Shown: positions 19,437 to 28,855 of the stretch, piece by piece
How positions within the stretch are numbered: the stretch's first letter is position 1
Layout of the letters: every line of letters begins with the position of its first letter
Assembly (NCBI RefSeq): GCF_000017945.1
Contig: NC_009776.1
Span: 930,001-962,000 of the forward strand
Source of the DNA: Ignicoccus hospitalis KIN4/I
GTDB lineage: Archaea; Thermoproteota; Thermoprotei_A; Sulfolobales; Ignicoccaceae
Direction of reading: 5' to 3'
DNA: 32,000 nucleotides
Program-made: the position numbers and the translations under genes
The notes under the pieces: generated by a model
The model's database searches: none
Told to the model about the DNA's origin: nothing
Seen by the model: the letters and a program-made list of their open reading frames with translations, nothing else

Positions 19437-19512
19437 GCCGCCGTAGCTCAGCCGGCAGAGCGCCGCCCTGGTAAGGCGGAGGTCCCGGGTTCAAGTCCCG
19501 GCGGCGGCTCCA
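19437..19512 (+). tRNA. tRNA-Thr (anticodon GGU) with encoded CCA
   Basis: Folded by hand. Acceptor GCCGCCG/CGGCGGC. D arm GCTC..GAGC. Anticodon stem CCGCC/GGCGG with loop CTGGTAA. Variable loop AGGTC. T arm CCGGG-TTCAAGT-CCCGG. Discriminator T, then CCA. Confidence 0.9.
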
Positions 19513-19912
19513 CGCTCTACCCAAAACGGTCCGACGAAACGCCCGCTCCGCATCCCTCCTCCATTTATGGAAGGACCGTTCCCAACGATAGGCCTATGCT
19601 CTCGCCACCCCTCCTCGTGTTGTGTGCACCGTACTCTGTAGAGGACGATCGATATTAGATCATTAGGTTATACCGTCCCTTTATTCTTGATGTTGTCGGG
19701 GATTCGAACTAGACCGTCGTCGCGTAGGAGCATTACGACGTTCACAAGTTCCTATAAATCATATACACGATATCCAAGACGATATATTAAATGGATATCG
19801 GTAACGATGTTATTTCGTCTTGGGATGTGTACAGTAAATGGGCTTGTACCAGAGGGCCGATGTGAACCGCTAAACGACTAATTTTGAGGACAGTACGCTT
19901 ACGCTGAAGTAA

Positions 19913-20137
19913 CTACTTATATGCATGTCCTCTAAAATCGATAAGATGTATTATAATAGTCCTGGAGCCCCAATCAATTGTGTATACAATACGGATATCT
20001 CCCAAGCGAGTCTTGAAAGCGTCTTCAAACCCCTTTAGCTTCTTTACGTCGTAATCTCTAAAAGGGATGGGATTCATCTTCAATTTGTCCAGAACCTCCA
20101 ATACTTTAAGCTTGTAATGTTTGGGGAGTCCCTCCAA
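19913..20137 (-). CDS. RelE/ParE-family toxin, possibly frameshifted at the 5' end
   Basis: LPKHYKLKVLEVLDKLKMNP....KKLKGFEDAFKTRLGDIRIVYTIDWGSRTIIIHLIDFRGHAY matches the RelE pattern (KL.G....R.R.GdyRi.Y.i......I..I..R...Y). TTG start. See the finding on the upstream 15-codon ORF. Confidence 0.7.
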   Translation of the reverse strand: MEGLPKHYKLKVLEVLDKLKMNPIPFRDYDVKKLKGFEDAFKTRLGDIRIVYTIDWGSRTIIIHLIDFRGHAYK

Positions 20138-20214
20138 GGCTCTACTAGCCTTACGTTTTACCCTTACTTACTTGGAAGAAGAGGTTACCGCTCAAAATAA
20201 GTTCCCTGTTATTT

Positions 20215-20406
20215 TCATCTCATCAGCTTTCGTTTGATTTCGTCAAGGTCGATTATCTCGTCGTCAGCATCGATTGCCTCGATTTCGTCGGGGAGGGGTT
20301 CTACTTCTTCGATATTCCTTTCGATGATGAAGCGCAACATGCACTCTACCCTAGTCGGCCTCTCCTTTATCTCTCGAATCTCTGATAAGAGTTCAGAGTC
20401 TACCAA
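20215..20406 (-). CDS. putative antitoxin, assigned by its position upstream of the RelE-like gene
   Basis: 63-aa ORF ending about 20-80 nt upstream of the toxin, with an acidic C-terminal half (EEVEPLPDEIEAIDADDEIIDLDE). Family not recognised. Confidence 0.45.
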   Translation of the reverse strand: MVDSELLSEIREIKERPTRVECMLRFIIERNIEEVEPLPDEIEAIDADDEIIDLDEIKRKLMR

Positions 20407-20679
20407 CCCTTATCCTGGGCGTAGTTTTGGTATAGTACGTCCCTAAAATCGGCTTGGAATCGGTGGATGAACAATTGCTTTGGTGTCGCGGGGATTTTGG
20501 AGTGGCGCCGTGTGGGAGCACAACAATATGTAAACGTTCACATCAATGATATGAATATAATCCAAAATGGTAAACAGAATGGATATCAACGATGATGCTA
20601 ATCTACCCAGATATTCACGCTTGGTCCTTGGATACTCTAATAAAGGCGTTTCGTTTCAGCAATACTTGGGTGCGAGCCC

Positions 20680-20907
20680 TTGTCTGAAGCCGAAGATAGA
20701 ATAGTCGTCAATCCTAAAGTTATGGGAGGCAAACCAATAATAAAGGGAACTAGAATTCCTGTGTACTTCATCTTGGAGTTATTATCTAATGGCTGGAGCA
20801 TAGATGACATCTTGAGAGAGTATCCTCACCTCTCGCGAGAAGATGTGCTGGCAGCTATCAAGTACGCTGCCAAGGTTTTGAGGGAGAAAGTTATTGTCAA
20901 AGCCTAG
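20680..20907 (+). CDS. DUF433-family protein (putative antitoxin/HTH)
   Basis: NPKVMGGKPIIKGTRIPVYFILELLSNGWSIDDILREYPHLSREDVLAAIKYA matches the DUF433 signature (GkP.i.GTRipV..il..l..G.s.eeil..yP.l..edi.aal.ya). Confidence 0.8.
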   Translation: MSEAEDRIVVNPKVMGGKPIIKGTRIPVYFILELLSNGWSIDDILREYPHLSREDVLAAIKYAAKVLREKVIVKA

Positions 20908-21265
20908 ACTTCTAGCAGACGAAAATATTCCTCGAACAGCTATCGTTACACTTAGAGAAAAAGGATATGACGTGGTCTCGGTCTGGGAGCTTAGTCCGGG
21001 CATAAGCGACGAAGAAGTTGTAGAGCTGGCTATAAAGGAGAGGAGAATTATAGTAACGTTTGACAAAGACTTTGGAAGAATAGCACGTTTAAATCCTAAT
21101 TTGAATCCCAATACCACAGGAGTGATCCTACTAAGAATACCACCATTAAATCCCATATACGTAGCCGAAAGAATACTCTCAGTATTGGAAAGAATAGAAA
21201 ATCCGTACGGTAAGTTAATCATAGTCAAAAAGGGGGCAATAAAAACAATCACATTACACCAATAG
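20894..21265 (+). CDS. DUF5615 / Mut7-C PIN-like protein (putative toxin partner of DUF433)
   Basis: LLADENIPRTAIVTLREKGYDVVSV......SDEEVVELAIKERRIIVTFDKDF matches the LlDEn....l...L...G.dv......sD.ei...A..e.r.ivT.D.DF pattern. Overlaps the DUF433 gene by 14 nt. Confidence 0.75.
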   Translation: MSKPRLLADENIPRTAIVTLREKGYDVVSVWELSPGISDEEVVELAIKERRIIVTFDKDFGRIARLNPNLNPNTTGVILLRIPPLNPIYVAERILSVLERIENPYGKLIIVKKGAIKTITLHQ

Positions 21266-21347
21266 TTATCTTGGACTATTCACACAGCACCTCATCTACT
21301 GTATTTACACAAATTAGTAAAGATAAGAATATGTAATAATTTTGTGA

Positions 21348-21390
21348 TGGGGGACCGAGGGATTTGAGCCCCAGACCTCCGCCGCGTGAG
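21348..21390 (-). other. tRNA 3'-half-like remnant (anticodon loop to 3' end), not a complete tRNA
   Basis: The minus strand reads CTCACGC-GGCGG-AGGTC-TGGGG-CTCAAAT-CCCTC-GGTCCCC-CA. This has the loop, anticodon-stem 3' arm, variable loop and T-arm layout. The T stem has a mismatch and there is no matching 5' half upstream. Confidence 0.3.
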
Positions 21391-21417
21391 CCCCCCCCTC
21401 CCCCTCCCCCGAGCTAG

Positions 21418-21600
21418 ACGGGTGGGGGGCCGGACGTTAATGGGATCGAGCACACTCCGGCCTTCTCGTCGGACTGCAAGTATGTAGCAGTGGTCGACAA
21501 CTATTGGAACAGCGGGCCGGTCGGAAACAACACGCTTAATGTGTTTGACATCGATAGAAGGCTAGTCTACCCAAGAAGATGCACAGAATTTGGAACGTGA
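21418..21600 (+). pseudogene. possible remnant of a beta-propeller (WD/YVTN-like) protein gene
   Basis: A stop-to-stop 59-codon frame reads ..NGIEHTPAFSSDCKYVAVVDNYWNSGPVGNNTLNVFDIDRRLVYP.. This resembles one propeller blade (fS.DgKYvAv....n.l.vfD). It has no start codon and no N- or C-terminal context. Confidence 0.25.
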
Positions 21601-22149
21601 CGTGATGGGGAATAGATTAGCTATTGGGCACGCGGACGACAGGATCAAGACATACCACGTAGCTCTTTGCCTTCGTTAGCTCGCCTCCTAAGTACAGCCC
21701 TACTCTCTTTAATTTAGACAAGGTGTCAGCGAGCAACTAGATGTACCTTTGATTCGTAGTCGCCTGGTAGGTATATTGTGTATGTGACGAGCGCGTTCCG
21801 GCTTGTTCGGTCCACGTCCTTTCTCCTTATCGTTAACACCCAAGATAGGAGTATTCCGGAAGACCAACCTGCGCTCCCGCTACCTCTCTCCGTGTTCATG
21901 TACATCGTATTTTCGCTGGGCCGGAGCCTTAACCTCCTCTCGTAACCCAAAACCTTCGCTGTTGCGCGTTGCAGCCTACTTTCTCTTTTGTCCGCCGACC
22001 GTTGCTAATCTGTAAAATATCGAATGCTTTTCAGCTTCCCTCTGGGACTCTTGACGCGTTTTCGGATTTTGTTCTGACCGTAGTGGGTCCAAAGTCCGGT
22101 ACCTCAAAGCCCCGTTCCCTACGAAGCCTCTCCTCTGTCCGGTGTGGTC

Positions 22150-22489
22150 CTCGAGGTCCCTTACTTACTGCGTCTACCCAAGAACTTGCTCTCCTTAATT
22201 TAATATTTCACAAACATACTTTCTGTATAACTCATTACCAAACTTTTTCACTTACTCATTTCCTTTTCAACCTTCACCCACATGGGAACATCTTATATTC
22301 GAAAGCGCACCATTACTATTCACTCTCTCAAACCCCCTTATATCTTTTCATGGGAACGCTGAAGATCATGGAGGGAAGGGCAGAGGAAATTTTTCTTGAA
22401 TAAAGGGAAAAGCTTGGGGAATTGTAAACTCGTGGTAGAACGCAATTCTTTTAAGGGAAAGACCTTGGGGCTTTATATGGAAGGGCTCG
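22150..22489 (+). promoter_or_regulatory. putative leader of CRISPR array 1
   Basis: AT-rich, ORF-poor sequence abutting the best-conserved repeat of array 1. Contains a duplicated motif aagggaaa(a)g.cttgggg at 22403-22419 and 22453-22470. Confidence 0.4.
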
Positions 22490-22925
22490 GTGGAGTCTCA
22501 AGAGAGGATAGAAAGTGTTAAACCTAGTTCTAGCTCTCGACACAATTATGTTTTGTGGAGTCTCAAGAGAGGATAGAAAGGATATCGCCGATTTACGGGA
22601 GGGAAGGAGAATTCCTAGTGGAGTCTCAAGAGAGGATAGAAAGGTGAGGTGAAGGTACTGCCTGTTGGCGGAGGCCATCAGCATGTCCTGTGGAGTCTCA
22701 AGAGAGGATAGAAAGTTGACGTTATATACTGTACAGAGGTGTTTAGCATGAGCTTCACGTGGAGTCTCAAGAGAGAATGGAAAGTGATCAACGAGAATGT
22801 ACAAAAGAGCATATAACTGTTCTAAAGTGGAGTTTCAGGAAAGAATGGAAAGTTACTTAACTATCTTTGTCTCGTTCATTTCAATGTTGCTTACCTTCTA
22901 TAGAGCCTTAAGGGAGGATAGAGAG
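22490..22925 (+). CRISPR. CRISPR array 1: 7 repeats of 26 nt (GTGGAGTCTCAAGAGAGGATAGAAAG), 6 spacers
   Basis: Repeats start at 22490, 22555, 22618, 22690, 22759, 22827 and 22900. They differ from the consensus by 0, 0, 0, 0, 2, 5 and 6 nt. Spacers are 39, 37, 46, 43, 42 and 47 nt. Strand is inferred from the 3' ...GAAAG end and from decay toward the right end. Confidence 0.9.
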
Positions 22926-22929
22926 GAAA

Positions 22930-23727
22930 CTACGAACGCACGTGAGGCCCTCGTACGAAATTCATCACTACGTCCCCGAAGCCCGCGGCCCTCCCGCTCC
23001 CCACGCCGAAGAGCGCTGCGTGCGCTATTACCTTCTTCACGTCCTCGTCCGCCTCCCTCACCCAGAACAGCGCCGAGCCGCTGAGGGCGGGCAACCACTT
23101 ACGGTCGTAGTAGTACCAGACCTTCCCGGCGCTGTGTAAGGCAGAGTGGTCCTCCACCAGCGAGCGCTCGAGCTTCCACAAAACTTCTAGATATTTATCC
23201 TTAAACAAGGAGTAGGCGTTGACTGAGAAGAGGTGGGAGGGGGAAGGCAAGAAGCGGGTCCTAAGCTCCTCTCCGGGCCCCCTCCAAGGGTCCCTTAACA
23301 CTGCCGGCCCCCTGAACTTCACCCACAAGCCGCTCCCCTCCCCCAAGTCCAAGTCCACCTCTTCCACCGCCACGGTCTCTATTTCTATTACCTTCCTGCC
23401 GAACTCGAGCTTACAGTAGTCGAAGGAGAAAAGTTTGTTCACCAACTCCTCCGGCCCCGAGAGCTCGAAGCTCGCGTTCGGGGGCAAGGGGACCACCCCC
23501 TTCCCGGAGGGCCTCCCGGCCGTGCAGAAAGAGCACTTGACCGTCCTCTTCGGGTATATCGCCCTCCCTTCTTCGTCCAGCAAGGGCGTTATGTGGAATT
23601 CCTTATATCCCCCTTCAACTGAGAAGATCTTGGCGAAGTCGTCGTCTACGCACGAGAGGAAGCTCTTCACTAACTTCGCCGTGTAATCCTCAAAGGGGAC
23701 CGGGGTCAGCGCGACCTCGACCCTCAC
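22930..23727 (-). CDS. cas6: Cas6 CRISPR repeat endoribonuclease
   Basis: C-terminal glycine-rich loop GVGSGRAAGFGDV and a length typical of Cas6. Proposed GTG start at 23727 overlaps the cas4 TGA as GTGA. The track ORF starts at 23763. Confidence 0.85.
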   Translation of the reverse strand: MRVEVALTPVPFEDYTAKLVKSFLSCVDDDFAKIFSVEGGYKEFHITPLLDEEGRAIYPKRTVKCSFCTAGRPSGKGVVPLPPNASFELSGPEELVNKLFSFDYCKLEFGRKVIEIETVAVEEVDLDLGEGSGLWVKFRGPAVLRDPWRGPGEELRTRFLPSPSHLFSVNAYSLFKDKYLEVLWKLERSLVEDHSALHSAGKVWYYYDRKWLPALSGSALFWVREADEDVKKVIAHAALFGVGSGRAAGFGDVVMNFVRGPHVRS

Positions 23728-24068
23728 CCTTTTGAATCCGGGCAATAGGTCGCGAACGCGCAATTCTCACACCTCGCGGGGAAGTACTTCTTACACGCGG
23801 CCCTCTTTGAGGCCAAGCGCGCGGCTTGATAGTCCCCCTTATACTTAAGCAGCTCCTCAACTACCCCCGCCAAGTCACACTCCACCTTAACGAACGCTAT
23901 ATCTTCCGGCCTGAACAAGGCTACGGCTACCGGCAGGCCGAAGAGCTCGTGCACCCCTTGGGCGTAGAAGGCCAGCCTGGCGGCGGAACTGCACAAGGAA
24001 GCCCTCAAGTCCCCGCTCCTCTGTACTTCAACAATCAACGAGGTTAAGGGCTCCTTGAGCAAGGCCAC
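23724..24068 (-). CDS. cas4: Cas4-like protein, C-terminal part only (likely truncated or inactive)
   Basis: C-terminal Cys cluster CKKYFPARCENCAFATYC (C-x2-C-x5-C plus one extra Cys). The RecB motif region reads LIVEVQRSG, i.e. E-x-Q where E-x-K is expected. Only 114 aa, against about 170-200 aa. The motif-II-like PDYV lies upstream of the GTG start. Confidence 0.6.
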   Translation of the reverse strand: MALLKEPLTSLIVEVQRSGDLRASLCSSAARLAFYAQGVHELFGLPVAVALFRPEDIAFVKVECDLAGVVEELLKYKGDYQAARLASKRAACKKYFPARCENCAFATYCPDSKG

Positions 24069-24390
24069 GTAGTCCGGCCTCCGCGCGCGCCGCTAGCTCC
24101 TCTAACCTCCTCTCCTCTATCCCAGACTCCTTGGCGACGTTCCGGAGGTACTCCCCGCTCACGCCCAGCTTTTCGTAATCGTGTACCGCTCCGGCCCAGA
24201 AGCACTCCTCCCAACTCCCCTCCGGCAAGTAACCTTTCTCTTCTAAGAGTGCGCAGAGCTTAGCGGCCGTAGCGGCGACGGAAGCGAAGTGGTGAAACGC
24301 GGTGACGAAGACGTCGCCGCGCTTCACCAGCTTGAGCGCTTCGTCCCCTAAGAGGTCTCTGACCCTCGCTACCATCTCCTCCAGCGGCAT
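24028..24390 (-). CDS. HD-domain protein resembling only the N-terminal half of the Cas3'' nuclease
   Basis: H motif TAFHHFASVA and HD motif GAVHDYEKLG are spaced as in Cas3 HD domains. The later His/Asp motifs are absent and the tail runs into the cas4 fragment. The ATG at 24390 is preferred; the track TTG is at 24435. Confidence 0.5.
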   Translation of the reverse strand: MPLEEMVARVRDLLGDEALKLVKRGDVFVTAFHHFASVAATAAKLCALLEEKGYLPEGSWEECFWAGAVHDYEKLGVSGEYLRNVAKESGIEERRLEELAARAEAGLRGLAQGALNLVDC

Positions 24391-24486
24391 CCTTCTCCGA
24401 GATAAACTTCGAAACTTCTCAGTAAATATGTTCAAATCGGACTGCTGGGGTCAACCCCCTCGTGGACTGGGAGGTGTAGAGTCAAC

Positions 24487-25419
24487 TTGATTCTCGTCGT
24501 GAGGGGTCACGCGTTCGTCGGTAGGAAAGGTTACATGATAACGGTCAGGTATAAAAAAGACGGAAAGGAAGTAACCGAGGCGTTCCCAGCATTAGACATA
24601 GAAATGGCTGTGTTCGTCGGAAAGGGGATTACGGTGAGCACGGCTGCCCTGCAACTCTTGGAGGAGCAGAACGTGCCCACCTTGTTCCACGGGGTCGACT
24701 GGTCCTTTGTAACGATCAACCCAGTCAAGGTGGGCTGGTCGCGGGCGAGGAAGAACCAATATTCCATGGGGGAGACCGAGCTGGGAGTGAAGGTGGCCAA
24801 AGAGTTTATATTTGGAAAGTTGGAGGGGATGAGCAACGTTGCTAAGAACTTGAGCTACAAGGGGAAGAAACCCACGCCCAACTCGGACTACTGGAGGAGC
24901 GAGGGGAGGGGAGAGCTGGCCTCTTGCAAGAACTTGGACTGCGTCAAGAAGTTGGAGGCGGAGTGGAGCTCCAAGCTCTGGAAGGATATAGTTCAGTTCG
25001 TCCCCGGGATGAGGTCCAGAGTTCCTAGGGGAAACGACCCGCCCAATAGAACCCTAGACTACTTGTATGCCCTATTGTACTCTGTCTGCAACCACGCTCT
25101 GGTCGGGGCCGGTCTAGACCCTTACGCCGGTTTAATACACAGGGAAAGGGCAGGGAAGTTGAGCTTTGTTTACGATTTTAGTGAAATGTTCAAGCCTATG
25201 GCAATTTATGTCATGGCAACCGCGATAAGGACGTATAAAATAGAGCTTGAGGGAGACTTCTTAAACAAGGAAAGCTTACAAAAGGTTACTCAACTGTTCT
25301 ACTCTATTTTCGAGAGTAAGAAGTACTCCGTCAGAAAGTGGGTCTACGCGAAGGCGTGGCAGCTCAGAGATGCAATCGAATCTGGGAAAGAGTTCAAGGC
25401 TTTCGTCTTCCGACCCTAA
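24487..25419 (+). CDS. cas1: Cas1 integrase
   Basis: The Cas1 core is EAEWSSKLW....NRTLDYLYALLYSVCNHALVGAGLDPYAGLIHRERAGKLSFVYDFSEMFKP, with catalytic-type E, H and D/E present. The N-terminal beta domain is present. TTG start, 310 aa. Confidence 0.9.
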   Translation: MILVVRGHAFVGRKGYMITVRYKKDGKEVTEAFPALDIEMAVFVGKGITVSTAALQLLEEQNVPTLFHGVDWSFVTINPVKVGWSRARKNQYSMGETELGVKVAKEFIFGKLEGMSNVAKNLSYKGKKPTPNSDYWRSEGRGELASCKNLDCVKKLEAEWSSKLWKDIVQFVPGMRSRVPRGNDPPNRTLDYLYALLYSVCNHALVGAGLDPYAGLIHRERAGKLSFVYDFSEMFKPMAIYVMATAIRTYKIELEGDFLNKESLQKVTQLFYSIFESKKYSVRKWVYAKAWQLRDAIESGKEFKAFVFRP

Positions 25420-25648
25420 GGTTCGTTTAAGAAACTTTTAGGGCTCTCATCGACCCCGGCGTAGTTACTTTTTAACACTATGTTTTTCTATTCGATTTCA
25501 TATATCTGGTCCGAATTCGAATCTTCGAGGGTCCCCTCTTCAAATTACATGCGTGGGAGATCCTCGACCATCAACCGCTCGGTAGACGGCGTCCCGAAGC
25601 AGTAAACTAAATAAACTCTAACTTTAGGGTGACCATGGAAGGCCAGAG
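25420..25648 (+). promoter_or_regulatory. putative leader of CRISPR array 2
   Basis: 229-nt ORF-free, AT-richer segment between the cas1 stop and the first repeat. The array's degenerate repeats are at the opposite end. Confidence 0.5.
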
Positions 25649-27104
25649 GATTAAACGAAAGAGAACTGCAAGCTTGTACTGTGCTAGCTGGGCCGGAGAG
25701 CTCAGTTGCTCGATTAAACGAAAGAGAACTGCAAGACTTGGTTGACGACCTCGTCGAGCTTGTCGTACGCTTGGATTAAACGAAAGAGAACTGCAAGATG
25801 TCGTCACAGTGAAATACATACACCTTCTGCAAATCTGATTAAACGAAAGAGAACTGCAAGATGTCGTCACAGTGAAATACATACACCTTCTGCAAATCTG
25901 ATTAAACGAAAGAGAACTGCAAGATGTCGTCACAGTGAAATACATACACCTTCTGCAAATCTGATTAAACGAAAGAGAACTGCAAGGTTCTTTATCATTC
26001 CATTCCTGCCATACTCTGAGAAACAGATTAAACGAAAGAGAACTGCAAGCCGGTGCACCACACGTTTTCGCCTTCGACCTCGTCCCCGATTAAACGAAAG
26101 AGAACTGCAAGCTGGCGTGATGACGGTCGTACGATGACTATCCTAGAAGATTAAACGAAAGAGAACTGCAAGAGAGCACTATCGAACAGATAGACCTCAA
26201 CGTTTTCAGGATTAAACAAAAGAGAACTGCAAGTGCTAATCTGTTCCAAGGGAACGTCGACGCCATGGCGAAGATTAAACGAAAGAGAACTGCAAGTGGG
26301 TTCTTTCTGCCACCACCGCACACACCTCATGAGCGATTAAACGAAAGAGAACTGCAAGCTAGTGTACGCTTCACCGTGTGAAGACATAATGAGCAGGATT
26401 AAACGAAAGAGAACTGCAAGCTTTGCATTTCCTTCGGCAATGTAGCTCGCTATCGCGATTAAACGAAAGAGAACTGCAAGCGAGGGAATGAGCGGAGGGA
26501 AGCGGGATGAGGAGCGAGGATTAAACGAAAGAGAACTGCAAGATTAGAAGCACCACATGAACGAATCGGTGTGCATCAGGGATTAAACGAAAGAGAACTG
26601 CAAGTATGAATAACGGGTCCTCGATTACTTCTGGGTTGTCTGATTAAACGAAAGAGAACTGCAAGCAATGGCTTACCCAACACGGCCTGAGCGAAGAGGT
26701 CCTTGATTAAACGAAAGAGAACTGCAAGTTTGTCGAGCTCTTGCCAGGATAGACTAGGACAACCGGATTAAACGAAAGAGAACTGCAAGGGGTCTGCTGG
26801 CAGATCGGCGATGTCATCGCAATGGTAGATTAAACGAAAGAGAACTGCAAGTGAATGGCGGGTGCGGGAGATGGTTGAGGAGAAGATGGTAGTGATTAAA
26901 CGAAAGAGAACTGCAGGTAAGTAATATTCTATTAGCATCTTCTTCAAGTTTTCAGATTAAACGAAAGAGAACTGCAAGTATAAGGGCTATGGCATGATGG
27001 TAATGATGATAATGAGATTAAACGAAAAAGAACTGCAAGTCCATATCTACGCCCTTGTCATACATTTCCAAGGCCTTGAAGATTAAACGATAGAAAAGCG
27101 TAAG
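25649..27104 (+). CRISPR. CRISPR array 2: 24 repeats of 24 nt (GATTAAACGAAAGAGAACTGCAAG), 23 spacers of 36-42 nt
   Basis: Repeats were enumerated by hand. The first is 25649-25672 and the last, which is degenerate (gattaaacgatagaaaagcgtaag), is 27081-27104. Single-base variants start at 26210, 26894 and 27016. Spacers 3-5 are identical. Confidence 0.97.
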
Positions 27105-27274: not shown

Positions 27275-28855
27275 TTACTTAGATGCTATCTCCTTCACCA
27301 TTTCCTCGAGCTCGTTCAATTCGGCCTTTATTTGTTCAATTTTCCTCAAGAGTTCGTTAAGGTTCGGTTCCTCCTTCTTGCTGACCCTTCCTTTGAGCAA
27401 GCTCGCCAGAACCTCCTCAGCGTTAAGTTTTCCTTTAACGCTAACGCTTACCGCGTTCCCGCTGTCCGCGTCGACGAACTCAACGCTTACCAATCCCCTG
27501 GAGTCAGAGGTAGTTACCGAGAGCTTCCAATAGAAGGTCGAGTTAATTGTTGTGGGGAGGGGCTCTTGGACTTTGAGCGAGTCCCAAGCCCAGTTGGGAT
27601 GAGCCTTCATTACGTAGCTATAGGCCTTCGAAACCCCTATTTTAGGTTTGTCGAATTTGTAGACGTAGATTGTCGGTTCGGTGGAGGACGCGTTCACCAG
27701 TAGGATCATGTAAGCGGAGTAAGTGTTCCCAGGGGGTTCGGCGACGAAGACCCACCAAGGGCGACCCTCCTCGTCCAACAGGAGGTACGGTTGCGGGTTA
27801 TCTCCGACGTCCCTTATGGTAAACGTATTGTGAAAGAAGACTGCTTGGACCCAGTCCTTCACCCTCAAGGCGTCTACCCACCGCCTAGCTACCCTCTCCG
27901 GCAATGCGGGCACTCCGTAGCGGACCGCCTCCTCTGGCCTCACTTTCAGGATGGTCCCGTTAGGGTAGACGACCAAGTAAGAGTCGATGTAAGGCAAGGA
28001 TCCCGGGAACACGGGTTTGTAATCCACTACTGGCAACAGCTGAACCACTTGTCCGTTCAGATACACGTCGGCGACGTCCTCCCATACCACCTCTTTGCCG
28101 AAGGCCCCACTGAAAAGGCTCTCCAAAGCCAACGAATCTAAGAAGAGAGGGGTCAGTTTGTAGTTGTGCAGTCCCCAAGTCAAGTCTTGCCTCACTATCT
28201 TGACCTCCGGGGGGTAGGCGTCTGCGTAAACGAACACGGCCCCGCGGGGGTCCCTGAAGAGCGAGTTGAGAACGCCTTCGGGCTCTATGAGCCAATTATA
28301 AATAGGTCTGGTCCCGTTGTAGTAGACGTAGGTCTCTTGATAGTAGATCGTGTGCGTGGGTAACTGAATCCTGTCTATCGCGTACTTGTAGGCCGTTGGA
28401 AGGGGTATCAACCTGTAGACCCCCACTAAGTTCGGCAGCTCCTTCAGCTCGACGACCTTAAGGGAGTTCCCCACTTGGGAAATCGCCGTTACGTTTACCA
28501 ACCAAGCCAGGGGCCCAATTACTACCACTAAGTAAGCTATTAGGTAACTCAACTTAACCTCGTTCCCGGCCCTAACTCCCCTCGCTAGGTAGAACGCTAG
28601 CGGAAAAGCGAGCGCGGCGAGAAGGGCCCACAGGCCCGGCGCGGCCTTCGCAGATAGGAGGGCCGCGCTGACGAAGGGGACGAACCAGCCCGTGAGGTAG
28701 CCTAGGGCTAATAGGAACGGAAGCAAGGAGAGCGCTAACTTACCGATCAAAGAACGTCTCCGAGAGACGAGCCTTCCCGAGACGTTAAATGAGTTTAAAC
28801 GCTTTCCGCCTCCCCAAAGCTCGTTAATCATTCTGATGGTTCCAACGAGGACCAA
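27275..28855 (-). CDS. large membrane protein of unknown function
   Basis: Three or four N-terminal TM helices (LALSLLPFLLALGYLTGWFVPFVSAALL, LWALLAALAFPLAFYLA, LIAYLVVVIGPLAWLV). Then a ~350-aa Y/W/P-rich domain and a C-terminal coiled coil (NLNELLRKIEQIKAELNELEEMVKEI). The ATG at 28831 is an alternative start. Confidence 0.6.
   Translation of the reverse strand: MVLVGTIRMINELWGGGKRLNSFNVSGRLVSRRRSLIGKLALSLLPFLLALGYLTGWFVPFVSAALLSAKAAPGLWALLAALAFPLAFYLARGVRAGNEVKLSYLIAYLVVVIGPLAWLVNVTAISQVGNSLKVVELKELPNLVGVYRLIPLPTAYKYAIDRIQLPTHTIYYQETYVYYNGTRPIYNWLIEPEGVLNSLFRDPRGAVFVYADAYPPEVKIVRQDLTWGLHNYKLTPLFLDSLALESLFSGAFGKEVVWEDVADVYLNGQVVQLLPVVDYKPVFPGSLPYIDSYLVVYPNGTILKVRPEEAVRYGVPALPERVARRWVDALRVKDWVQAVFFHNTFTIRDVGDNPQPYLLLDEEGRPWWVFVAEPPGNTYSAYMILLVNASSTEPTIYVYKFDKPKIGVSKAYSYVMKAHPNWAWDSLKVQEPLPTTINSTFYWKLSVTTSDSRGLVSVEFVDADSGNAVSVSVKGKLNAEEVLASLLKGRVSKKEEPNLNELLRKIEQIKAELNELEEMVKEIASK

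What the first reader, a model, noticed from the sequence alone, without database searches (positions are those of the whole stretch)
22490..27104. Two unrelated CRISPR arrays bracket a four-gene cas remnant: no cas2 and no interference genes in sight
**Seen.** The repeats differ: GTGGAGTCTCAAGAGAGGATAGAAAG (26 nt) against GATTAAACGAAAGAGAACTGCAAG (24 nt). They share essentially only the terminal ..AAG. Their predicted 8-nt crRNA 5' tags differ (AUAGAAAG against ACUGCAAG). Only cas6, a cas4 fragment, an HD fragment and cas1 lie between them. No ORF in the supplied track resembles Cas2, Cas5, Cas7, Cas8, Cas10 or a Cas3 helicase. Yet array 2 has 20 essentially perfect repeats, and its leader touches cas1.

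**Established.** Cas1 normally needs Cas2 for integration. Crenarchaeal Cas6 enzymes leave an 8-nt tag that effector complexes read.

**Inference.** One reading is a trans-dependent satellite locus that relies on cas2 and effectors encoded elsewhere, with a single Cas6 serving two repeat families. The other is a locus frozen after a deletion. A functional minimal Cas1/HD/Cas4/Cas6 unit would be new, but that is the less likely reading.
Basis: partly seen in the sequence, partly recalled or inferred. Interest (0 to 1): 0.7.

Follow-up and report, generated by a model that had tools for sequence, protein, structure and literature searches.

The report
Type I-D CRISPR locus gutted by deletion
This is a type I-D CRISPR-Cas locus of the archaeon Ignicoccus hospitalis in which one ~6.5 kb deletion removed the interference genes and cas2, leaving cas1, cas6, two gene stumps and two arrays; it is an ordinary decayed immune locus in a genome that has complete CRISPR systems elsewhere.

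Summary
Two real, same-strand CRISPR arrays of different repeat families bracket cas6, two short ORFs and cas1. Array 1 has 7 repeats of 26 nt (22490-22925). Array 2 has 24 repeats of 24 nt (25649-27104). No Cas2 or effector gene lies anywhere in the 32 kb window.

The window is Ignicoccus hospitalis KIN4/I, genes Iho_1043 to Iho_1078. In relatives the orthologous locus is a complete type I-D operon: cas1 divergent from cas10d-csc2-csc1-cas3'-cas2-cas4-cas6. These relatives are I. pacificus, three MAG or metagenome contigs, and the sister lineage for the cas10d start.

In the window, the "HD fragment" is Cas10d residues ~12-119 and the "cas4 fragment" is Cas4-like residues ~87-212. The two blocks abut at 24076/24077 in different reading frames. 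A single ~6.5 kb deletion, probably at a GCGG(C)AGGCC microhomology, removed csc2, csc1, cas3', cas2 and most of cas10d.

Repeat 2 is the cognate I-D repeat. Repeat 1 is a second family already present at this position in a relative.

Published proteomics lists a complete type I-A system with cas1, cas2 and cas4, two Cmr modules and a second Cas6 elsewhere in the genome. It detects this Cas6 but not this Cas1 or the stumps.

Verdict: a degraded, non-autonomous locus of a known kind. Any residual function must be in trans. Interest is low.

The parts
22200..22489 (+). Leader of array 1 (A+T-rich, GC 0.39)
   Evidence: Composition. The motif CATGGGAACGC(T/C)GAAGATCAT is shared with the leader of the R1-like array in relative L005. 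It is unrelated to leader 2.
22490..22925 (+). CRISPR array 1: 7 repeats of 26 nt (family R1) and 6 spacers of 37-47 nt; the last 3 repeats are degenerate
   Evidence: An orthologous R1-like array (21/26 identical repeat) sits at the same place and in the same orientation next to cas6 in L005.
22930..23727 (-). cas6 (Iho_1070, 265 aa from the GTG at 23727; the mechanical ORF runs on to 23763); intact
   Evidence: PADLOC Cas6 E 4.7e-44 over the full length. It is 72% identical over all 258 residues of the L007 Cas6. Its rate is symmetric in Tajima tests. The protein was detected by proteomics (PMC3149612 supplement).
23724..24077 (-). Stump of the I-D cas4-like gene (C-terminal residues ~87-212; annotated Iho_1071, 104 aa); it has no native start codon
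   Evidence: tblastn places L007 Cas4-like residues 87-212 at 24077-23727, 48% identity, E 3.5e-31. BLASTP against L005 gives 40% identity, E 2e-25. The protein was not detected by proteomics.
24076..24084 (-). Deletion junction: cas10d codon ~119 joined out of frame to cas4 codon ~86
   Evidence: The homology blocks abut at 24076/24077. The junction reads GCGCGCGGAGGCC|GGACTACGTGGCC. L007 carries GCCGAGGCC in cas10d and GCGGCAGGCC in cas4, which gives a microhomology.
24028..24390 (-). Stump of cas10d (N-terminal HD region, residues ~12-119, followed by 15 out-of-frame codons and a stop; Iho_1072, 120 aa)
   Evidence: BLASTP against L005 Cas10d residues 20-111 gives 51% identity, E 3e-28. tblastn against L007 residues 12-119 gives E 3.6e-24. 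L007 Cas10d matches S. islandicus Cas10d, PDB 6THH_C, E 3e-17, including the HD motif. The protein was not detected by proteomics.
24391..24486 (.). Divergent intergenic region between the cas10d stump and cas1; presumed promoters (inferred)
   Evidence: Sequence shows A+T-rich TATA-like stretches (catatttact, aagtttatc) just upstream of the ATG at 24390. No experimental evidence.
24487..25419 (+). cas1 (Iho_1073, 310 aa); full length with catalytic residues kept
   Evidence: Pfam Cas_Cas1 E 7e-42. It is 76% identical to the L007 Cas1. Invariant E157, H218, D230 and E233 are retained. Substitution is faster than in relatives. The protein was not detected by proteomics.
25420..25648 (+). Leader of array 2
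   Evidence: It is partly conserved with the cas1-side leader of I. pacificus: AGTTACTT, CATCAACC, and (A/T)TGGAAG just before the first repeat.
25649..27104 (+). CRISPR array 2: 24 repeats of 24 nt (family R2, the cognate type I-D repeat) and 23 spacers of 36-42 nt; spacers 3-5 are identical
   Evidence: R2-like repeats flank complete I-D operons in I. pacificus (21/24 identical) and in L013 (22/24 identical with the same ACTGCAAG end).

Best explanation

**Ancestral layout.** cas1 faced array 2. It was divergent from the operon cas10d-csc2(cas7d)-csc1(cas5d)-cas3'-cas2-cas4-cas6, and a second array of another repeat family lay beyond cas6.

**The event.** One deletion of about 6.5 kb joined cas10d codon ~119 to cas4 codon ~86, probably by recombination or slippage at a short GCGG(C)AGGCC microhomology. 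The join is out of frame. It removed csc2, csc1, cas3', cas2, about 86% of cas10d and the first ~40% of cas4.

**Consequences (shown).** The locus can no longer build a type I-D effector, and it has no Cas2 or Cas4 partner for its Cas1. The two short ORFs are stumps, not genes.

**Consequences (inferred).**
- cas6 kept its native 4-nt overlap with the cas4 stop and now lies ~0.7 kb instead of ~8 kb from the operon promoter. It is still made and still under constraint.
- Cas6 probably still cuts array 2 transcripts into crRNAs with an ACUGCAAG 5' tag.
- Any use of those crRNAs, and any new spacer uptake, would depend on the complete type I-A system and the two type III-B (Cmr) systems encoded elsewhere in the genome.
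- Cas1 here is most likely idle and beginning to drift.
For: **Source.** The window Cas1 is 100% identical to I. hospitalis Cas1 on a 1,297,538 bp contig. The gene order matches Iho_1043-1078 in the PMC3149612 supplement.

**Complete I-D operons at the orthologous place.**
- I. pacificus, L004.
- L005 and L006.
- L007, L008 and L013.
- PADLOC names the genes Cas10d, Cas7d, Cas5d, Cas3d, Cas2 and Cas6.
- The Cas10d matches PDB 6THH_C.

**The stumps.**
- Y matches Cas10d residues 12-119.
- X matches Cas4-like residues 87-212.
- The two blocks abut at 24076/24077 in different frames, and nothing else of the operon is left in the window.
- The sister lineage L015 reads on through the cas10d junction point, so the deletion is specific to I. 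hospitalis.
- The stumps are no more diverged than the same segments are among intact orthologs, so the deletion is evolutionarily recent.

**Not an assembly artefact.** The same junction is present in other assemblies: L001, L002, L003 and L011.

**Repeat 2 is the I-D repeat.**

**State of Cas6 and Cas1.**
- Cas6 is full length, evolves at a symmetric rate and is detected as protein.
- Cas1 and both stumps gave no spectral counts.
- Cas1 has 44 unique substitutions against 14 in L007 (p = 1e-4), with I. pacificus confirmed as outgroup.

**Systems elsewhere.** Complete I-A, two Cmr modules and a second Cas6 are listed in PMC3149612.
Against: - **Ancestral sequence unknown.** No ancestral I. 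hospitalis sequence exists, so the microhomology and the single-step nature of the deletion are inferred from relatives only 70-76% identical in Cas1.
- **Same strain.** All assemblies that show the junction carry identical spacers and may derive from one strain or culture.
- **Weak Cas1 signal.** Its NJ branch is only modestly long, and the test against L005 is borderline (p = 0.049). Cas1 keeps all its catalytic residues.
- **Proteomics is uninformative on Cas1.** The I-A adaptation proteins were also undetected.
- **No RNA data.** I found no data on whether either array is transcribed or processed.
- **Rest of the chromosome not scanned.** I could not search it for a second I-D effector set or for other arrays with these repeats. 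The two genome-contig scans returned nothing at all, not even the window's own arrays. They are therefore uninformative for this genome.
Confidence: 0.88

Rival explanations
1. Selected trans-dependent satellite locus. After the deletion the locus is kept because it works. This Cas1 pairs with the I-A Cas2 and Cas4 to load new spacers into array 2. This Cas6 matures crRNAs from both arrays, which are used by the I-A Cascade and Cmr complexes encoded elsewhere.
For: - Cas6 is intact, expressed and evolving at a normal rate.
- Cas1 keeps its catalytic residues.
- Array 2 has 20 perfect repeats, and its leader is partly conserved with I. pacificus.
- I-A and two Cmr systems exist and are expressed.
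- I. islandicus keeps an ortholog of this Cas6 (58% identity) as a solo gene with no cas neighbours. This suggests the Cas6 lineage is useful without I-D effectors.
Against: - The stumps are as fresh as intact orthologs. Intact repeats and an intact cas1 can therefore be explained by recency alone.
- Cas1 shows excess lineage-specific substitutions and was not detected.
- The three identical consecutive spacers point to recombination rather than acquisition.
- No spacer difference between assemblies was seen.
- The R2 tag ACUGCAAG differs from the AUUGAAAG-type tag of the R1 family, and no evidence shows that I-A or Cmr complexes accept it.
- A second Cas6 exists for the other repeat family.
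Confidence: 0.25
2. Fully dead relic. Nothing in the locus functions any more. Cas6 expression is a by-product of the surviving promoter, and all parts are simply waiting to decay in a genome under reduction.
For: - The effector genes and cas2 are gone.
- Cas1 and the stumps were not detected.
- Array 1 is short and half degenerate.
- I. hospitalis has a strongly reduced genome. Its genome paper states that the architecture suggests recombination events have caused gene-cluster fragmentation and deletions (PMC2614490).
Against: - Cas6 protein is present at a moderate level (adjusted spectral counts 43 and 21), whereas the other Cas6 (Iho_1151) was not detected.
- Cas6 shows no rate acceleration, unlike Cas1.
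- A solo ortholog is kept in I. islandicus.
Confidence: 0.3
3. A novel autonomous minimal unit made of Cas1, a small HD protein, a small Cas4 and Cas6.
For: Only the superficial gene list supports this. The short ORFs are open and overlap like operon genes.
Against: - The two short ORFs are exact N- and C-terminal pieces of Cas10d and Cas4 joined out of frame.
- The HD piece ends in 15 nonsense codons.
- The Cas4 piece lacks its N-terminal 86 residues, including the first cluster cysteine.
- Neither is detected as protein.
- Every relative has the full operon.
Confidence: 0.01
4. Assembly or sequencing artefact that collapsed the operon.
For: None beyond the general possibility.
Against: - The same junction is present in the finished chromosome (the window), in a MAG, in two Logan assemblies and in a JGI contig.
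- The published annotation has the same 104-aa and 120-aa genes.
Confidence: 0.01

Closest known systems
Type I-D CRISPR-Cas systems (Cas10d with an N-terminal HD domain, Csc2/Cas7d, Csc1/Cas5d, Cas3' helicase, Cas6; e.g. Sulfolobus islandicus LAL14/1, PDB 6THH; Synechocystis)
   Same: - cas1, cas6, the cas10d N-terminal HD stump, the cas4-like stump and repeat family R2 are all orthologous to parts of complete I-D loci in Ignicoccus relatives.
- The relatives' Cas10d matches S. islandicus Cas10d.
- This Cas6 family also has 33-36% identical members in Sulfolobales.
   Different: - All effector subunits (Csc1, Csc2, Cas3', ~86% of Cas10d) and Cas2 are missing, so it is not a working I-D system.
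- The repeats are short (24 nt) and unstructured.
Partial or degraded CRISPR-Cas loci and orphan arrays, as catalogued in comparative CRISPR-Cas classifications (own knowledge of that literature)
   Same: Arrays with an incomplete cas complement sit in a genome that has other, complete systems. Function, if any, is in trans.
   Different: Here the exact deletion can be reconstructed to within a few bases from intact orthologs. One retained gene (cas6) shows signs of continued use.
Shared crRNA supply in Sulfolobales, where Cas6 paralogs process arrays whose crRNAs are loaded into type I-A, I-D and III-B complexes (own knowledge; e.g. work on Cas6 specificity and crRNA loading in S. solfataricus)
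   Same: The setting is crenarchaeal. Repeats are short, weakly structured or unstructured, and end in ...AAG. Several effector types and more than one Cas6 occur in one genome.
   Different: No evidence here that crRNAs from array 2 are made or loaded. The R2 tag ACUGCAAG departs from the AUUGAAAG-type tag.

Membership tests
CRISPR array (both arrays) | At least 3 near-identical direct repeats of ~23-47 nt, separated by unique spacers of similar length | tested here: met
   Array 1 has 7 repeats of 26 nt and spacers of 37-47 nt. Array 2 has 24 repeats of 24 nt and spacers of 36-42 nt. No matches in shuffles.
CRISPR array (both arrays) | A+T-rich leader at one end and a degenerate terminal repeat at the other | tested here: met
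   Leaders have GC 0.39 and 0.45, against ~0.58 in the flanks. Degenerate repeats lie at 22827, 22900 and 27081.
[quoted passage not shown] | Cas10d large subunit with an N-terminal HD domain | tested here: not met
   Only residues ~12-119 of ~859 remain, followed by 15 out-of-frame codons.
[quoted passage not shown] | Csc2 (Cas7d) and Csc1 (Cas5d) backbone subunits | tested here: not met
   No tblastn hit in the window below E 0.39. No Pfam, NCBIfam or PADLOC hit.
[quoted passage not shown] | Cas3' helicase | tested here: not met
   No credible hit in the window (best E 0.036, falling in a 2-oxoacid oxidoreductase gene).
[quoted passage not shown] | cas1 and cas6 orthologous to those of complete I-D loci, in the same relative position | tested here: met
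   Cas1 is 65-76% identical and Cas6 63-72% identical to genes flanking complete I-D operons, with the same divergent layout.
[quoted passage not shown] | Cognate repeat family next to cas1 | tested here: met
   R2 is 21/24 identical to the I. pacificus repeat and 22/24 identical to the L013 repeat, both flanking complete I-D operons.
Complete adaptation module (Cas1-Cas2, with or without Cas4) | Cas2 encoded with Cas1 | tested here: not met
   No Cas2 in any ORF or frame of the window. Relatives have a 94-125 aa Cas2 in the deleted segment.
Complete adaptation module (Cas1-Cas2, with or without Cas4) | Cas1 with intact catalytic residues | tested here: met
   E157, H218, D230 and E233 are invariant in the alignment and present in the window protein.
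Trans-acting crRNA supply (stand-alone Cas6 plus array serving effectors encoded elsewhere) | Intact, expressed Cas6 | tested here: met
   Full-length alignment. Spectral counts 43 and 21 for Iho_1070 in PMC3149612 supplement file 2.
Trans-acting crRNA supply (stand-alone Cas6 plus array serving effectors encoded elsewhere) | Effector complexes encoded elsewhere in the same genome | tested here: met
   Literature only. I-A is Iho_1136-1141; the Cmr modules are Iho_0326-0329 and Iho_0460-0464; most were detected as protein.
Trans-acting crRNA supply (stand-alone Cas6 plus array serving effectors encoded elsewhere) | Mature crRNAs from these arrays are made and loaded into those effectors | not testable with these tools
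   No I. hospitalis small-RNA data were found in the paper library.

The most novel reading that the evidence does not exclude
After losing its own type I-D effector, the locus was kept as a crRNA factory. The I-D-type Cas6 (Iho_1070), now close to the operon promoter and the only Cas6 seen in the proteome, matures crRNAs with an unusual ACUGCAAG tag from the orphan I-D array. It may also process other arrays. Type III-B or I-A complexes use these crRNAs. This would be a natural case of effector swapping that preserves an immune memory after the cognate interference genes are lost. The solo ortholog of this Cas6 in I. islandicus would be a later stage of the same process.
Probability: 0.2. Interest if true: 0.45.

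Novelty: new member of a known kind. Interest (0 to 1): 0.2.

Why it matters
**Main value: annotation.** Iho_1071 and Iho_1072 are listed as 'hypothetical proteins' but are pseudogene stumps of cas4 and cas10d. Iho_1070 is the I-D Cas6. Array 2 is an orphan type I-D array.

**A dated example of CRISPR-Cas loss.** The deletion is clean and specific to one lineage, in the smallest genome of a free-living archaeon.

**A modest natural experiment.** One gene of the wreck (cas6) still behaves as if it were used, while another (cas1) may be drifting.

**Limits.** The finding opens no new mechanism and touches no long-standing question.

Tried and rejected
- **Genome-contig scans.** Exact scans for R2 and for the R1 core found nothing, not even the window's own arrays. 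The source genome seems absent or masked there, so the scans say nothing about other arrays in I. hospitalis. They show only that no other species representative carries these exact repeats.
- **Metagenome scan.** A search for R1-like repeats gave one unrelated 1.2 kb array.
- **Reaching the I-A locus.** A Cas1 profile search did not return the I. hospitalis I-A Cas1, so I could not inspect its arrays.
- **Spacer targets.** There were no significant matches within the window or the fetched loci. Three spacers gave no match in viral contigs.
- **Literature.** No paper contains either repeat sequence. No paper links Ignicoccus with type I-D or with crRNAs.
- **Junction mapping with L004 and L005.** DNA alignments to these loci were too diverged. 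L007 worked.
- **tRNA fragment.** A suspected fragment near 21340-21400 was not supported by Rfam at E <= 1.
- **Leader similarity.** Leader 1 and leader 2 are not related.
- **cas1 G+C content.** cas1 has lower G+C than cas6, but the same holds in relatives, so this does not indicate decay.
- **Cas4 profile search.** A profile of the Cas4-like family found no solved Cas4 structure by sequence. The Cas4 assignment rests on weak model hits, the four-cysteine pattern and operon position.

Full report
**Observation**

The two arrays are real.
- Array 1 (22490-22925, + strand) has seven 26-nt repeats. Four are perfect, and the last three decay progressively.
- Array 2 (25649-27104, + strand) has 24 repeats of 24 nt. 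Twenty are perfect, three have one mismatch, and the terminal copy is degenerate.
- Neither pattern occurs in shuffled sequence.

Both arrays have A+T-rich leaders on their 5' side. Leader 2 begins right after the cas1 stop codon. The two leaders are unrelated.

The repeats are two families, but they are not wholly dissimilar. They match at 12 of 24 positions without gaps.

Four genes lie between the arrays.
- cas6, minus strand: PADLOC E 4.7e-44.
- A 114-aa ORF with a weak match to the Cas4 C-terminus.
- A 135/120-aa ORF with an HD motif and no family hit.
- cas1, plus strand: Pfam E 7e-42.

The rest of the window is housekeeping: SRP54, topoisomerase VI A, KsgA, isocitrate dehydrogenase and a 2-oxoacid:ferredoxin oxidoreductase. 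It also holds a tRNA-Thr and two toxin-antitoxin pairs. No Cas2 or effector gene is present.

**Source**

The Cas1 is 100% identical to Ignicoccus hospitalis Cas1 on a 1,297,538 bp contig. The window gene order matches Iho_1043 to Iho_1078 in the proteomics supplement of PMC3149612. There the locus is:
- Iho_1070: RAMP protein, 265 aa (cas6).
- Iho_1071: hypothetical, 104 aa.
- Iho_1072: hypothetical, 120 aa.
- Iho_1073: Cas1, 310 aa.

**What the locus was**

I looked up the contigs that encode the closest Cas1 and Cas6 relatives. Each carries a complete type I-D operon at the orthologous place. The layout is cas1 divergent from cas10d (855-860 aa), csc2, csc1, cas3' (655-678 aa), cas2 (94-125 aa), a cas4-like gene (198-221 aa) and cas6.
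- I. pacificus, L004.
- A MAG and a Logan contig, L005 and L006.
- Two hydrothermal-vent metagenome contigs, L007 and L008, with Cas1 76% and Cas6 72% identical.
- L013, where the cas2-cas4-cas6 block is inverted.

PADLOC names the genes Cas10d, Cas7d, Cas5d, Cas3d, Cas2 and Cas6. The Cas10d matches the S. islandicus Cas10d structure 6THH, including the HD motif.

**The deletion**

The 135-aa ORF aligns to Cas10d residues 20-111 of L005 (51% identity, E 3e-28). The 114-aa ORF aligns to residues 101-217 of the 219-aa Cas4-like protein (40% identity, E 2e-25).

I ran tblastn with the whole L007 protein set against the window.
- Cas10d residues 12-119 fall at 24384-24076.
- Cas4-like residues 87-212 fall at 24077-23727.
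- The two blocks abut but lie in different frames.
- There is no trace of csc2, csc1, cas3' or cas2 anywhere in the window.

In L007 coordinates the missing segment is 6,481 bp.

The junction reads GCGCGCGGAGGCC|GGACTACGTGGCC. L007 has GCCGAGGCC at that point in cas10d and GCGGCAGGCC in cas4. A short microhomology is therefore the likely crossover site. This is an inference, because the ancestral I. hospitalis sequence is unknown.

Because the join is out of frame, the Cas10d stump runs through 15 nonsense codons to a stop at 24028. The Cas4 stump has no native start codon.

The sister lineage in the Cas1 tree (L015) reads on through the junction point with normal Cas10d sequence. The deletion is therefore specific to the I. 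hospitalis lineage.

The same junction occurs in a MAG, two Logan assemblies and a JGI contig, which excludes an assembly error. Those assemblies have identical spacers, so they may represent the same strain.

**Age and selection**

The stumps are as similar to their orthologs as intact orthologs are to each other.

| Segment | I. hospitalis vs L007 | L007 vs L005 |
|---|---|---|
| Cas10d N-terminal piece | 58% | 59% |
| Cas4 C-terminal piece | 53% | 51% |

They contain no internal stops. The deletion is therefore recent on the scale of species divergence.

I ran Tajima relative-rate tests with I. pacificus as outgroup. NJ trees confirm that it is an outgroup.

| Gene | Comparator | I. hospitalis-unique | Comparator-unique | p |
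|---|---|---|---|---|
| Cas1 | L007 | 44 | 14 | 1e-4 |
| Cas1 | L005 | 41 | 25 | 0.049 |
| Cas6 | L007 | 18 | 20 | 0.75 |
| Cas6 | L005 | 21 | 27 | 0.39 |

The Cas1 signal is suggestive only. Its tree branch is just modestly long, and all its catalytic residues are kept.

**The two repeat families**

R2 is the cognate type I-D repeat.
- I. pacificus has GATGATACGAAAGAGAACTGAAAG (21/24 identical) in arrays on both sides of its I-D operon.
- L013 has GATTACACGAAGGAGAACTGCAAG (22/24 identical, same ACTGCAAG end).

R1 is a different family that was already at this position before the deletion.
- L005 has GTTGAGTCCCAAGAGGGAATTGAAAG (21/26 identical) in the same place and orientation next to cas6. 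It shares a leader motif with the window.
- A metagenome contig holds another R1-like array.

The two families differ in two further ways.
- R1 can form a 4-bp mini-stem with a compensatory U-A to C-G change between the two species. R2 is unstructured.
- Spacers are 37-47 nt in array 1 and 36-42 nt in array 2. The same difference holds in the relatives' arrays.

These differences suggest two distinct adaptation and processing machineries. They argue against one Cas6 having to serve both families.

**Rest of the genome (literature)**

PMC3149612 reports nine arrays and 37 cas genes in I. hospitalis. Its supplement lists the following.
- A complete type I-A system, Iho_1132-1141: csa1, cas1, cas2, cas4, HD, cas3, a 338-aa protein, cas5, csa2 and csa5.
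- A second arCOG01440 Cas6, Iho_1151.
- Two Cmr modules, Iho_0326-0329 and Iho_0460-0464.

Most effector subunits were detected as protein. All adaptation proteins, including both Cas1s, were not.

Iho_1070 (this Cas6) was detected, with adjusted spectral counts of 43 and 21. Iho_1151 was not detected. Iho_1071, Iho_1072 and Iho_1073 had zero counts.

The genome paper states that the architecture of this very small genome suggests recombination events have caused gene-cluster fragmentation and deletions (PMC2614490).

**How it most likely works now**

Shown:
- The locus cannot build an I-D effector.
- It has no Cas2 or Cas4 partner for its Cas1.
- The two short ORFs are stumps.

Inferred:
- The surviving operon promoter now drives a short transcript ending in cas6.
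- cas6 keeps its native GTGA overlap with the cas4 stop.
- Cas6 is made and probably still cuts array 2 transcripts, and perhaps others.
- Any interference with those crRNAs would need the I-A or Cmr complexes.
- Any new spacer in array 2 would need the I-A Cas2.
- The three identical consecutive spacers near the leader indicate repeat-mediated duplication rather than acquisition.
- I. islandicus keeps an ortholog of this Cas6 as a solo gene without cas neighbours or nearby arrays. This fits a Cas6 that is useful without its I-D partners.

**Limits**

- I could not scan the rest of the I. hospitalis chromosome. The genome-contig scans returned nothing at all, not even the window's own arrays.
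- The profile search did not return the I-A Cas1. Whether other arrays share R1 or R2, and whether a second I-D effector set exists, therefore rests on the literature gene list only.
- No spacer target was found.
- No RNA data were available.

**Verdict**

The deletion reading is demonstrated. The locus is a degraded type I-D system of a known kind in a genome with other complete CRISPR-Cas systems. It corrects the annotation of two 'hypothetical proteins' and offers a tidy example of CRISPR-Cas decay, but it is not a new kind of system.

Noticed in passing
window 25798-25962 (array 2, spacers 3-5): Three consecutive identical 39-nt spacers (ATGTCGTCACAGTGAAATACATACACCTTCTGCAAATCT) form a perfect 63-bp tandem triplication near the leader. 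Short-read assemblies of the same strain collapse it to one copy (L001, L002).
   Followed up: partly
window 19437-21265: A low-G+C island (0.43 against ~0.58) lies directly after tRNA-Thr (19437-19512). It carries a ParE/RelE-like toxin (19913-20137, minus strand) with a small upstream ORF, and a DUF433 / DUF5615-PIN pair (20680-20907, 20894-21265). It looks like a toxin-antitoxin islet at a tRNA gene. No integrase was seen.
   Followed up: partly
window 21266-22199: About 930 bp with no ORF that hits any family. It contains C- and G-rich runs around 21395-21430. The MAG contig DUJT01000015.1 ends at about window 22298, inside leader 1, so sequence to the left may be repeated elsewhere in the genome. 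A suspected tRNA fragment was not confirmed by Rfam.
   Followed up: partly
L004 2768-3364, L005 2728-3387, L007 1602-2240, L013 2089-2754; window 23724-24077: The I-D-linked 'Cas4' of Ignicoccus relatives is very divergent. It barely reaches Cas4 or PD-(D/E)XK models (E 0.001-0.01). It keeps the four cysteines and the Asp and Glu of the nuclease motif, but no member has the canonical Lys of D-ExK (EVQ, EAA, EVV or EIQ instead).
   Followed up: partly
L009 10001-10822 (Ignicoccus islandicus CP006867.1): An ortholog of this Cas6 (58% identity) stands alone between alaS and a repeat-rich 257-aa gene. There are no cas genes or R1/R2-type arrays within 10 kb on either side.
   Followed up: partly
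window 22490-22925 compared with L005 1293-1805: The R1 repeat family can form a 4-bp mini-hairpin (UCUC/GAGG in I. hospitalis, UCCC/GGGA in L005) with a compensatory U-A to C-G change. The I-D repeat family R2 has no predicted structure.
   Followed up: partly
L013 1722-3530: In this relative the cas2-cas4-cas6 block is inverted relative to cas10d-csc2-csc1-cas3'. The R2-type array lies beside cas2 rather than beside cas1 in the part of the contig that was assembled.
   Followed up: no
L004 1-1805 and 11138-12970 (I. pacificus): Both arrays flanking the I. pacificus I-D operon use the same repeat but in opposite orientations (about 29 and 31 repeats). I. hospitalis and L005 instead have a different repeat family on the cas6 side.
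   Followed up: partly
window 27275-28855 (minus strand): A 526-aa ORF (annotated as the 491-aa Iho_1074, with predicted signal peptide and membrane segments) has no Pfam, NCBIfam or PADLOC hit. It lies directly after the degenerate end of array 2.
   Followed up: no
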